Shown here in pieces: positions 22,483 to 23,633 of a DNA stretch of 64,000 nt (position 1 is the first letter of the stretch; every line of letters begins with the position of its first letter). The DNA is taken from contig CM000436.1 in the NCBI GenBank assembly GCA_000165345.1, positions 480,001 to 544,000 on the forward strand, read 5' to 3'. Made by a program: the position numbers and the translations under genes. Below the pieces are notes generated by a model. It saw only the letters and a list, made by a program, of their open reading frames with translations. It searched no databases and had not been told where the DNA came from.

Positions 22483-23364
22483 TTAGTTCTTTAGTTCATC
22501 AGAAATTGGATTGTTTGCATTACTACTTGCAGGAGGTGGATTCAAATGAGGGTGTTGGACTGGCTGAAGAAGCTGATTAAGACCAATATAGTCAGCCACA
22601 TTAATTACATCCTTATCATTACAAGTAGAAATCCTCTGTCTAACAGTTTCTTGTAGAGCATTAACCTGAGCTTCAAAAGCTGTCAAATAAGCAATCTTGG
22701 CGGTTTCAACTTCAGCTCTTGCCTGCTCCTCAGATCTAAGTTCATCTGGGCCGCTTGAAAGTCTTCCAGTATGATCCATTCTTGATCTCTCTACAAGTTG
22801 ATCAATAAGAGGTCTATCTGGATCTAAACCTGCCCAAATAAGATTCTTACCAACTCCAACGCTTCTTCTTACAACTCCAATAGCTAATAATACATTCAAA
22901 ACATCATAAACTCTTCTTCTAATATTCTTGGCTTCGGGATTCTTAGAACGACCTGGACCATCTCCTAATTCCATATTAATTAGATGCTCAGTCATTTCAT
23001 GATAAGAGGCGACCTTAATTGCACTAACTTTTTCACATACTCTGTGACTAAAAACTCCTAATTTACAGCGGTTTCTCATTTGGCTTGGCGTACCTCCATA
23101 TTCTGCCACGCCGCCGGCTCCATTACCTGCACCTCCGGCACCAGCACCAGTACCAGCTAAGTGATGTTGAGGCAATAACGATAAATGAGGTAAAGATGAG
23201 TGATCAGCAGAAACTAATTGCTCATTTGTTCCTCCCGCTGATGTTCCTTGTGGCATTTTAAATTGTCCAGGGTGATGCTGCTCCATGCCTCCCCCAACAG
23301 ATACTGGGTGTTGAGAATATCCACTTGGAACAAACCCTCCAGCTCCTAAGTTTGCGTTATTCAT
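22483..23364 (-). CDS. TFDP: Transcription factor Dp (E2F dimerisation partner), winged-helix DNA-binding domain
   Basis: [22 protein letters not shown]...[23 protein letters not shown]...IWAGL matches the DP DNA-binding domain (MKVCEKVQ.KG.TSYNEVADEL...[32 protein letters not shown]). The ORF track starts at a TTG; the first ATG (MNNANLG) is at 23364. Confidence 0.85.
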   Translation of the reverse strand: [293 protein letters not shown]

Positions 23365-23613
23365 CTTTTTCAATAACTCGATATTGGACCTGTAAAGTTT
23401 TGTTATTAGTTTTGGTTGCTTTAAAAATGGAAATTTGGCTCTTTTTTTTTTCTTAATAACCGCTCTCGGCCTTTCCTACTTAACTACTTTAAAAATATAT
23501 ATATTTATTTCCCTATTTATTTTTAATATCCTTTCCCTATTTAATTATTACTTGGTAATATATAATTAAATAGCTGGAGAAGTAATAATTATTATATATT
23601 AAAATCCAGATAT

Positions 23614-23633
23614 TTGCCGCCGGCGCCTAAACA
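23614..23633. promoter_or_regulatory. E2F-like element TTGCCGCCGGCGCCTAAAC about 250 bp upstream of the DP transcription-factor gene
   Basis: Read directly. It overlaps GCCGCC and GGCGCC cores. Confidence 0.5.

What the first reader, a model, noticed from the sequence alone, without database searches (positions are those of the whole stretch)
22483..23633. DP (E2F partner) gene sits in a window saturated with E2F-like GGCGCC promoter elements, including one upstream of itself
The winged-helix DP DNA-binding domain is unmistakable. About 20 intergenic GGCGCC(A/T)AA elements occur almost exclusively within 100-400 bp upstream of start codons. They include a perfect double palindrome at 51125-51144 and one about 250 bp upstream of the DP gene, implying possible autoregulation. 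This is an opportunity to link the factor to its sites.
Basis: partly seen in the sequence, partly recalled or inferred. Interest (0 to 1): 0.5.

Follow-up and report, generated by a model that had tools for sequence, protein, structure and literature searches.

The report
Known Cryptosporidium DP gene, E2F sites
This is the DP transcription-factor gene on Cryptosporidium parvum chromosome 8, surrounded by the GGCGCC "E2F-like" promoter motif already published as the commonest upstream motif in this parasite, so the finding is real but already described, including the idea that the factor regulates its own gene.

Summary
The window is Cryptosporidium parvum DNA. The ORF at 22483-23364 (-) is 100% identical to the annotated E2F/DP winged-helix protein (by inference cgd8_1850) and is DP-type. 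GGCGCC occurs 20 times against 0.4 expected. Sixteen sites are intergenic, and it is the most over-represented 6-mer in the spacers (about 89-fold). Fourteen sites lie in 5' spacers, 13 of them 71-425 bp from a start codon. One lies 258 bp upstream of DP, inside a tandem core that is conserved in C. felis, C. bovis and C. ryanae.

Corrections: only 13 sites carry the (A/T)AA flank, two sites sit in convergent 3' spacers, four are coding, and 51125-51144 is a 9-bp inverted repeat with a TG spacer, not a perfect palindrome.

All of this is published: the motif (Bankier 2003; Oberstaller 2013), its dominance in open chromatin, and the suggestion that E2F/DP genes autoregulate (Xiao 2025). I found no direct binding assay. 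A site upstream of DP is weak evidence for autoregulation, because 13 of 23 genes here have one.

Two side observations may be new. The gastric species C. muris and C. andersoni lack the 6-mer at orthologous promoters. The Cryptosporidium DP lacks a detectable DP dimerisation domain.

The parts
22483..23364 (-). DP-type E2F/DP winged-helix transcription factor gene, 293 aa. It is C. parvum cgd8_1850 / cpbgf_8001850 by inference. Winged-helix DNA-binding domain at about aa 100-181, recognition motif [13 protein letters not shown] at aa 147-159, predicted long helix (coiled coil) at about aa 206-247.
   Evidence: Pfam PF02319 E=7e-11. Best PDB hit human DP-2, 1cf7_B, E=5e-9, against E2F-4 at E=0.88. 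100% identical to EAK89387.1 / CPATCC_004005. Genus alignment.
23604..23642 (-). Conserved promoter island upstream of DP. In gene orientation it reads AAAACCCACTGTTTAGGCGCCGGCGGCAAATATCTGGAT. It holds a tandem of two adjacent cores, GGCGCC (23622-23627, 258 bp from the ATG) and GGCGGC (23616-23621), with T-rich and A-rich outer flanks and a following TATCT(T)GG.
   Evidence: Read. Orthologous blocks: GGCGCCGGCGCC in C. felis (-250), CGCGCCGGCGCC in C. bovis (-328), GCGCGGGCGCGG in C. ryanae (-454). Each is followed by (A/G)TATC in spacers that otherwise do not align.
24161..24166 (.). GGCGCC site (TTTGGCGCCAAT) 113 bp upstream of the divergent LisH-WD40 gene (24274-26388, +), in the same spacer as the DP promoter.
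   Evidence: gene model
21541..21546 (.). GGCGCC site 193 bp upstream of the intron-containing ribosomal protein S9 gene (19954-21348, -).
   Evidence: RPS9 gene model (L005 12017-13411)
22112..22117 (.). GGCGCC site between the DP stop and the RPS9 start (371 bp 3' of DP, 764 bp 5' of RPS9). A TGCATGCATGCATGCA run (AP2_1-type motif) lies 40 bp away at 22057-22072.
51125..51144 (.). Double site GGCGCCAAATGTTTGGCGCC, 85 and 71 bp upstream of the XPB/RAD25 helicase gene (51210-53717, +). It is a 9-bp inverted repeat with a TG spacer.
   Evidence: 18 of 20 positions self-complementary. The first core plus AAATGT is conserved in C. felis (-65) and as GGCGCCATATGT in C. bovis (-72). The second core is GCCGCC in C. 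felis and absent in C. bovis.
57268..57273 (.). GGCGCC site (GCGGGAATTTGGCGCCTAAATGCA) 217 bp upstream of the NAD kinase gene. It is a composite with a TGCAT (AP2_1-type) motif.
   Evidence: GGCGCC-N-AAATGCA is conserved in C. felis (-220) and C. bovis (-200).
1655..1660 (.). GGCGCCAAA site 425 bp upstream of the 1123-aa gene at 2080-5451 (+). A CCCGCC variant lies 15 bp away.
8463..8468 (.). GGCGCCAAA site in a divergent spacer, 295 bp upstream of the gene at 6063-8168 (-).
17925..17930 (.). TTGGCGCCAAA site 234 bp upstream of the pelota/Dom34 gene (18159-19541, +).
   Evidence: C. felis has GGCGCC 76 bp upstream of its pelota.
31935..31940 (.). GGCGCCAAA site in a divergent spacer, 419 bp upstream of the ELMO-domain gene (29966-31516, -).
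35588..35593 (.). GGCGCC site 310 bp upstream of the ENTH-domain gene (35898-37463, +).
50444..50449 (.). GGCGCCAAA site 276 bp upstream of the 3395-aa GCN1-like gene (39981-50168, -).
60802..60807 (.). GGCGCC site in a divergent spacer, 148 bp upstream of the gene at 60950-63850 (+) and about 257 bp upstream of the WD40 gene (59375 to about 60545, -).
5970..5975 (.). TTTGGCGCC site in a convergent (3'-3') spacer. It is not upstream of any annotated start.
19580..19585 (.). GGCGCCAAA site in the convergent spacer between the pelota and RPS9 3' ends. It is not upstream of any annotated start.

Best explanation
The window is a stretch of Cryptosporidium parvum chromosome 8. The gene at 22483-23364 (-) encodes one of the parasite's two DP-subfamily winged-helix proteins.

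The GGCGCC elements, extended consensus TTTGGCGCCAAA, are the known Cryptosporidium 'E2F' cis-element. They are short GC-only boxes in AT-rich spacers, mostly 70-430 bp upstream of start codons and often in divergent spacers. Dimers of the E2F/DP family are expected to bind them through the RRxYD recognition helices and to mark or drive promoters of a large share of genes.

The DP promoter carries a conserved tandem version of the box, so DP transcription is probably under the same control as most of its neighbours, which would include feedback from E2F/DP.

Shown here: the identity of the gene, the enrichment, placement and flanks of the motif, and its conservation at orthologous promoters.

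Inferred: that E2F/DP proteins are the binders, and that DP feeds back on itself.
For: - Organism and gene: 100% identity to C. parvum / C. hominis E2F/DP proteins. PF02319. DP-2 is the best solved homologue, with the recognition helix NIRRRVYD(V/A)LNVL essentially identical.
- Enrichment: 20 GGCGCC against 0.40 expected. It is the top 6-mer in spacers, 16 sites against about 0.18 expected, roughly 89-fold. The related GGCGGG is also enriched, 11 against 0.37.
- Flanks: A at 21/32, 21/32 and 19/32 in the three positions 3' of the core after symmetrising. This is the canonical T-rich/A-rich E2F flank.
- Placement: 14 of 20 sites lie in 5' spacers (p=5e-6). Thirteen of the 14 are 50-450 bp from the ATG, where 60% is expected for random positions in those spacers. 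My arithmetic from those numbers gives p of about 0.008.
- Conservation: GGCGCC is kept at similar distances upstream of DP, XPB, NAD kinase and pelota in C. felis and of DP, XPB and NAD kinase in C. bovis; the DP box is also kept, in a GGCGCG variant, in C. ryanae. The surrounding spacer does not align.
- Literature: the E2F motif TGGCGCCA is the most over-represented upstream motif in C. parvum (PMC3734150). It is found upstream of 161 of 200 co-expression clusters (PMC4117751). [quoted passage not shown] E2Fs may autoregulate' (bioRxiv 10.1101/2025.01.17.633476).
Against: - I found no direct binding or perturbation experiment for Cryptosporidium E2F/DP.
- The motif is nearly ubiquitous here: 13 of 23 genes, or 19 of 23 with variants. 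Its presence at DP therefore says little about a specific loop.
- Two of the 16 intergenic sites are in convergent 3' spacers, at a density similar to 5' spacers.
- Human E2F2/DP1 heterodimers prefer GGCGGGAA, and GGCGCC is the E2F-homodimer SELEX site (PMC4686757).
- The Cryptosporidium DP lacks a detectable DP dimerisation domain, PF08781.
- C. muris and C. andersoni encode a near-identical DP DNA-binding domain but show no GGCGCC in 35 kb of orthologous sequence.
Confidence: 0.75

Rival explanations
1. The palindromic GGCGCC boxes are read by a symmetric dimer that does not include DP, namely an E2F homodimer. The E2F/DP heterodimer would instead use the asymmetric GGCGGG(AA) boxes that are also enriched in the window. 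DP would then be linked to a different subset of sites from the one the reader highlighted.
For: Human SELEX: E2F2+DP1 prefers TTGGCGGGAA over 'the GGCGCC site bound by E2F homodimers' (PMC4686757). The DP recognition helix is identical to that of human DP, so the same half-site preference is plausible. Eleven intergenic GGCGGG sites are seen against 0.37 expected, four of them GGCGGGAA. The DP has no detectable PF08781 dimerisation domain.
Against: Classical E2F/DP heterodimers do bind [C/G]GCGC[G/C] cores (Zheng et al. 1999, as summarised in PMC3734150). The coiled-coil segment after the DP DNA-binding domain is almost invariant across the genus, which argues for a conserved partner interface. 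There are no data on Cryptosporidium proteins either way.
Confidence: 0.2
2. GGCGCC is a general promoter or chromatin-organising element, such as a nucleosome-excluding or bidirectional start-site-positioning box. It would be recognised by a non-E2F protein, for example an untested ApiAP2, zinc-finger or Myb factor. Its resemblance to the E2F site would then be coincidental.
For: The motif is found at most genes regardless of function: ribosomal protein, helicase, NAD kinase, GCN1-like and others. It also occurs in convergent spacers and upstream of lncRNAs (PMC7840661). Clusters carrying the motif peak at every time point (PMC3734150). The authors themselves caution that motif presence does not show binding.
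Against: Cryptosporidium is the only apicomplexan genus that retains E2F/DP, and it is the one with this motif over-represented (PMC12246861). The flanks reproduce the full 12-bp E2F consensus, not only the core. The review's Table 3 assigns the motifs found by protein-binding microarray (TGCAT, GCACAC, G-box) to ApiAP2 factors and the E2F motif to E2F/DP (PMC12246861; PMC4117751).
Confidence: 0.1
3. The excess of GGCGCC is a compositional or mutational artefact with no function.
For: None beyond the small size of the motif.
Against: None of 100 dinucleotide-preserving shuffles reaches more than 3 copies, against 20 observed. The motif is about 10-fold denser in spacers, which are more AT-rich than coding DNA. 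It is kept at orthologous positions in species with very different base composition: C. felis loci at 49-51% GC against 30% in C. parvum.
Confidence: 0.01

Closest known systems
Cryptosporidium parvum 'E2F' upstream motif family, 5'-TGGCGCCA-3' / [A/T][C/G]GCGC[G/C][A/T] (Bankier 2003; Mullapudi 2007; Oberstaller 2013, PMC3734150; Xiao 2025, bioRxiv 10.1101/2025.01.17.633476)
   Same: Same organism, same core, same flanks, same upstream placement and same abundance. Ribosomal-protein promoters are included, as with RPS9 here. The suggestion that E2F/DP genes carry the motif and may autoregulate is also the same.
   Different: Nothing substantive. This window is simply a 64-kb sample of the published genome-wide pattern.
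Metazoan/plant E2F-DP heterodimer and its site TTTSGCGCSAAA (E2F4-DP2-DNA structure, 1CF7)
   Same: Winged-helix DNA-binding domain with the RRxYD recognition helix. The DP-type sequence [12 protein letters not shown] is conserved. The core is a GC-only hexamer with T/A flanks.
   Different: The Cryptosporidium DP has no detectable DP dimerisation/marked-box domain, PF08781. [quoted passage not shown] The motif sits at most promoters rather than at a cell-cycle regulon. Human heterodimers prefer GGCGGGAA over GGCGCC.
E2F1-type promoter autoregulation in mammals (E2F sites in the E2F1 promoter; established knowledge, cited as an analogy by Xiao 2025)
   Same: A family member's own promoter carries tandem E2F-type sites close to the start.
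   Different: Here the gene is the DP partner, and the site type is shared with more than half of neighbouring genes. No response of DP transcription to E2F/DP has been shown.

Membership tests
DP subfamily of E2F/DP winged-helix transcription factors | E2F_TDP winged-helix DNA-binding domain (Pfam PF02319) | tested here: met
   E=7.3e-11, 42.1 bits against a cut-off of 25.7, aa 102-169
DP subfamily of E2F/DP winged-helix transcription factors | RRxYD DNA-contact motif on the recognition helix | tested here: met
   [13 protein letters not shown] at aa 147-159 aligns with [13 protein letters not shown] of human DP-2 in 1cf7_B. It is invariant in five Cryptosporidium species and an outgroup DP.
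DP subfamily of E2F/DP winged-helix transcription factors | DNA-binding domain closer to DP than to E2F proper | tested here: met
   PDB phmmer: DP-2 E=5.3e-9 over aa 100-181; E2F-4 E=0.88; E2F8 E=1.3
DP subfamily of E2F/DP winged-helix transcription factors | DP dimerisation domain (Pfam PF08781: coiled coil plus marked-box-like beta region) | tested here: not met
   No PF08781 hit even at E<=10, while the outgroup DP P0009 scores E=5e-26. The alignment keeps the helical part and lacks the beta part. The AlphaFold2 model shows a long helix at 206-247 and no beta domain, but at low confidence, mean pLDDT 49.
DP subfamily of E2F/DP winged-helix transcription factors | Forms a DNA-binding heterodimer with an E2F protein | not testable with these tools
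   The two annotated E2F genes (cgd1_1560, cgd6_1430) lie outside the window (PMC12246861). No complex prediction or assay is available.
E2F-type cis-element (TTTSGCGCSAAA) | GC-only core [C/G]GCGC[G/C] | tested here: met
   20 GGCGCC against 0.40 expected, plus one GGCGCG
E2F-type cis-element (TTTSGCGCSAAA) | T-rich 5' and A-rich 3' flanks | tested here: met
   Symmetrised counts for the 16 intergenic sites: A at 21, 21 and 19 of 32 at +1 to +3. Half-site flank AAA occurs 11 times and TAA 3 times out of 32. The 4 coding sites show no such flank.
E2F-type cis-element (TTTSGCGCSAAA) | Promoter-proximal position | tested here: met
   14 of 20 sites in 5' spacers (p=5e-6), 13 of them 71-425 bp from the ATG. 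However, 2 sites are in convergent spacers at a similar density.
E2F-type cis-element (TTTSGCGCSAAA) | Purifying selection on individual sites (conserved at orthologous promoters) | tested here: met
   Sites at the DP, XPB, NADK and pelota promoters are conserved in C. felis, at DP, XPB and NADK in C. bovis, and (DP, variant core) in C. ryanae. The 6-mer is not conserved in C. muris or C. andersoni, where 5-bp cores occupy similar positions.
E2F-type cis-element (TTTSGCGCSAAA) | Occupied by E2F/DP proteins | not testable with these tools
   No binding study was found in the paper library. Published ATAC-seq shows the motif in open chromatin only.
Autoregulatory E2F/DP loop | Family-type site in the factor's own promoter, under constraint | tested here: met
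   Tandem core at 23616-23627, 258 bp upstream, conserved in four species
Autoregulatory E2F/DP loop | Site presence is distinctive for the factor's gene rather than generic | tested here: not met
   13 of 23 genes have GGCGCC within 500 bp upstream, and 19 of 23 have some E2F-like element
Autoregulatory E2F/DP loop | DP transcription responds to E2F/DP activity | not testable with these tools
   Needs a knock-down or promoter-mutation experiment

The most novel reading that the evidence does not exclude
The perfectly symmetric GGCGCC box may be a derived feature of the intestinal Cryptosporidium clade. In about 35 kb of orthologous sequence from the gastric species C. muris and C. andersoni the 6-mer is absent (0 sites, against 13 in the matching C. 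parvum stretches). The same promoters instead carry asymmetric 5-bp cores (GGCGC or GCGGG) 57-244 bp upstream of the ATG, although the DP DNA-binding domain is virtually identical.

This would mean a genus-internal shift in the preferred form of a near-universal promoter element. One possible cause is a change in which dimer reads it, for example an E2F homodimer or a marked-box-less DP heterodimer. I found no paper describing this.
Probability: 0.3. Interest if true: 0.4.

Novelty: already known. Interest (0 to 1): 0.12.

Why it matters
Cryptosporidium is the only apicomplexan genus that kept E2F/DP factors, and the E2F-like box appears to be its main promoter element. Knowing who binds it would explain much of the parasite's transcription. 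That question has been posed explicitly in the literature since 2013 and was sharpened by ATAC-seq in 2025. This window adds no new angle to it beyond local confirmation. The only possibly fresh leads are the absence of the palindromic form in the gastric species and the truncated DP architecture. Both bear on which dimer reads the site.

Tried and rejected
- Structure prediction of the DP from the six-sequence alignment gave a low-confidence model (mean pLDDT 49, pTM 0.27). I ran no fold search on it and use its secondary structure only as weak support.
- Pfam at E<=10 found no DP dimerisation domain.
- Rfam and tRNA scans of the whole window found nothing, so no RNA genes explain the long spacers.
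- Literature searches for ChIP, DAP-seq or EMSA of Cryptosporidium E2F/DP found none. A search for any description of a motif difference in the gastric clade also found none.
- I considered that the site at 22112 might lie in an internal spacer of a DP-containing dicistron. The published dicistron involves the other DP, cpbgf_7003650, so I did not pursue this.
- I considered a compositional artefact and rejected it on the shuffle test, the contrast between coding and spacer DNA, and cross-species conservation.
- Assignment to cgd8_1850 rather than cgd7_3650 is by inference only. It rests on the length of the carrying contig (1.34-1.38 Mb), the position at about 0.49 Mb, and the gene numbering CPATCC_004005. 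I had no direct ID lookup.
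Full report
**1. What the sequence is.**
The window is AT-rich, about 30% G+C. The ORF at 22483-23364 on the minus strand translates to a 293-aa protein. This protein is 100% identical to proteins annotated 'E2F/DP family winged-helix DNA-binding domain protein' in Cryptosporidium hominis and C. parvum (EAK89387.1, CPATCC_004005). Neighbouring ORFs are also exact C. parvum proteins.

The carrying contigs are 1.34-1.38 Mb chromosomes, with the gene at about 0.49 Mb. The 2025 review lists two DP genes, cgd7_3650 and cgd8_1850 (PMC12246861). From contig size and gene numbering I infer this one is cgd8_1850. 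That assignment is an inference, not a lookup.

**2. The protein.**
- Pfam finds the E2F_TDP winged-helix domain, PF02319, at E=7e-11.
- The only significant solved relative is human DP-2 in the E2F4-DP2-DNA complex (1cf7_B, E=5e-9, aa 100-181). E2F-4 scores E=0.88.
- The recognition helix [13 protein letters not shown] is almost letter-for-letter that of human DP-2.
- No DP dimerisation domain (PF08781) is detected even at E<=10, while an outgroup DP (P0009) scores E=5e-26.
- In the alignment the helical segment after the DNA-binding domain is retained and is nearly invariant across five Cryptosporidium species. The beta-rich marked-box part is missing.
- An AlphaFold2 model agrees in secondary structure: winged helix, then a long helix at 206-247. 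Its confidence is low, mean pLDDT 49, so I do not lean on it.

**3. The motif: is it there, and is it more than chance?**
- GGCGCC occurs 20 times against 0.40 expected from dinucleotide-preserving shuffles, with a maximum of 3 in any shuffle.
- With the (A/T)AA flank there are 14 matches, which are 13 distinct sites, against 0.08 expected.
- In an unbiased scan of all 6-mers, GGCGCC is the most over-represented word in the spacers, about 89-fold over a first-order Markov expectation.
- The next most over-represented words are overlapping E2F-type words, the TGCATGCA family, GGCGGG (11 against 0.37) and a G-run. These are the motif families already published for C. parvum: E2F, AP2_1 and G-box (PMC3734150; PMC12246861 Table 3).
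- The 16 intergenic sites have A-rich 3' and T-rich 5' flanks, giving TTTGGCGCCAAA. The four coding sites do not.

**4. Placement.**
I took gene models from the NCBI annotations of the same chromosome. These show that ribosomal protein S9 is an intron-containing gene spanning 19954-21348 (-) and that a WD40 gene spans 59375 to about 60545 (-).

| Region class | GGCGCC sites | Density per kb |
|---|---|---|
| Genic | 4 | 0.08 |
| Divergent spacers | 9 | 1.14 |
| Tandem 5' spacers | 5 | 0.84 |
| Convergent 3'-3' spacers | 2 | 0.93 |

- Fourteen of 20 sites fall in the 21.7% of bases that are 5' spacers (p=5e-6).
- Thirteen of those 14 lie 71-425 bp from the nearest start codon. Sixty percent would be expected for random positions in those spacers, which by my arithmetic gives p of about 0.008.
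- The sites at 5970 and 19580 are not upstream of any annotated start. E2F motifs upstream of antisense lncRNAs have been reported (PMC7840661), which could account for them. I did not test this.
- The 51125-51144 element is two cores in 9-bp inverted arms around a TG spacer. It is self-complementary at 18 of 20 positions and is not a perfect palindrome.

**5. The DP promoter.**
The site at 23622-23627 is 258 bp upstream of the DP ATG. It is the right half of a 12-bp GC-only tandem, GGCGCC followed by GGCGGC in gene orientation, flanked by TTTA and AAAT.

I fetched the syntenic loci of four other species. All share the gene order RING / LisH-WD40 / DP / RPS9 / pelota. The spacers do not align apart from an island around the tandem:

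| Species | Tandem core | Distance to ATG |
|---|---|---|
| C. felis | GGCGCCGGCGCC | -250 |
| C. bovis | CGCGCCGGCGCC | -328 |
| C. ryanae | GCGCGGGCGCGG | -454 |

Each tandem is followed by (A/G)TATC. This is good evidence that the box is under selection.

It is not good evidence for a specific autoregulatory loop. Thirteen of the 23 genes whose starts lie in the window have GGCGCC within 500 bp upstream. Nineteen of 23 have some E2F-like element.

**6. Other conserved sites.**
From loci around the XPB orthologues:
- GGCGCCAAATGT lies 85 bp upstream of XPB in C. parvum and 65 bp upstream in C. felis. GGCGCCATATGT lies 72 bp upstream in C. bovis.
- The second core of the C. parvum double site is GCCGCC in C. 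felis and absent in C. bovis.
- GGCGCC-N-AAATGCA lies 217, 220 and 200 bp upstream of NAD kinase in the same three species. It looks like an E2F plus TGCAT composite.

**7. What is already known.**
Oberstaller et al. 2013 report E2F (5'-TGGCGCCA-3') as the most over-represented upstream motif. They note it upstream of ribosomal protein genes, name the E2F and DP genes, and call for ChIP-seq (PMC3734150). The motif had been seen earlier on chromosome 6 (Bankier 2003) and at replication and glycolysis genes (Mullapudi 2007), both cited there.

Xiao et al. 2025 find the E2F motif to be the single most prominent motif in sporozoite ATAC-seq peaks, more than half of which are bidirectional promoters. 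[quoted passage not shown]

What is still missing is direct evidence of binding. I found none up to mid-2026.

**8. Mechanism and caveats.**
The most likely mechanism is that dimers of the E2F/DP family bind these boxes through their RRxYD helices and mark or activate promoters, including DP's own.

- Shown: gene identity; motif enrichment, flanks, placement and conservation.
- Inferred: the binder, and the feedback on DP.

One caveat is worth recording. In human HT-SELEX, E2F2 with DP1 prefers TTGGCGGGAA, and GGCGCC is described as the site bound by E2F homodimers (PMC4686757). The Cryptosporidium DP has the same recognition helix as human DP. The symmetric GGCGCC boxes could therefore be E2F-homodimer sites, with the GGCGGG boxes serving as the heterodimer sites (rival 1). 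A non-E2F binder (rival 2) is less likely, since the full 12-bp E2F consensus is reproduced and published tables assign the motif to E2F/DP, not to ApiAP2 factors. A compositional artefact is excluded.

**9. A side observation that may be new.**
The gastric species behave differently.
- C. muris (12.8 kb, L003) and C. andersoni (22.4 kb, L012) contain no GGCGCC at all. The matching C. parvum stretches contain 13.
- Five-bp cores (GGCGC, GCGCC, GCGGG, CCCGC) occur 8 times in 8.8 kb of spacer and twice in 26.4 kb of genic DNA.
- All 8 spacer sites are 57-244 bp upstream of a start codon. Examples are TTTGCGCCAAAA 57 bp upstream of XPB and two cores 219 and 204 bp upstream of DP.
- The DP DNA-binding domain is essentially identical in C. 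muris.

The sample is small and I found no paper on this. It needs a genome-wide check.

**10. Verdict.**
Interest is low. The residual novelty lies in the gastric-versus-intestinal difference in motif form and in the marked-box-less DP.

Noticed in passing
L003 (C. muris) 1-12825; L012 (C. andersoni) 1-22448: No GGCGCC in 35 kb that is orthologous to C. parvum stretches holding 13 sites. Instead, 5-bp cores (GGCGC or GCGGG) sit 57-244 bp upstream of XPB, Cwc15, LisH-WD40, DP, RPS9, pelota and a dynamin gene: 8 in 8.8 kb of spacer against 2 in 26.4 kb genic. AGCGGG is the top 6-mer in C. muris spacers (4 against 0.07 expected).
   Followed up: partly
window 22483-23364 (-), protein aa 182-293: The Cryptosporidium DP has no detectable Pfam DP dimerisation domain (PF08781). 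It keeps a highly conserved helical segment but lacks the marked-box-like beta region present in the nearest outgroup DP (P0009). Residues from about 97 to 247 are almost invariant from C. parvum to C. muris.
   Followed up: partly
window 22057-22072: A TGCATGCATGCATGCA run, which is overlapping copies of the known AP2_1 motif TGCATGCA. It lies 40 bp from the GGCGCC at 22112, in the spacer between the DP stop and the RPS9 start. GCATGC and TGCATG are the second most enriched word family in the window's spacers (about 12-19-fold).
   Followed up: partly
window 57255-57285; L014 about 16880-16905; L013 about 15945-15970: The composite GGCGCC-N-AAATGCA (E2F-like box directly followed by a TGCAT AP2_1-type box) is conserved about 200-220 bp upstream of the NAD kinase gene in C. 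parvum, C. felis and C. bovis. C. parvum also has GCGGGAA immediately 5' of it.
   Followed up: partly
window 5970-5975 and 19580-19585: Two consensus-flanked GGCGCC sites sit in convergent 3'-3' spacers where no annotated gene starts. They might drive antisense or non-coding transcripts, since E2F motifs upstream of lncRNAs are reported in PMC7840661. I did not test this.
   Followed up: no
window 8837-8945, 15082, 17033, 21780, 21858, 31832, 32665, 39400, 54502: A second E2F-like word, GGCGGG/CCCGCC, is enriched in spacers: 11 sites against 0.37 expected, four of them GGCGGGAA. It supplies an E2F-like element to several promoters that lack GGCGCC (PMI, Cwc15, DEAD helicase, the gene at 32768).
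   Followed up: partly
L001 and L014 (C. felis): The C. felis syntenic loci are 49-51% G+C against about 30% in C. parvum, yet the GGCGCC boxes are kept at matching distances from start codons. In this GC-rich background many more GC-rich hexamers occur inside coding DNA.
   Followed up: no
window 19954-21348 (-): The ribosomal protein S9 gene is split by introns. Its exons are visible as ORFs at 19954-20283 and about 20966-21163. Plain ORF listing misses its true start at 21348. This changes the reading of site 21541 from 'far from any gene' to 193 bp upstream of a ribosomal protein gene.
   Followed up: yes
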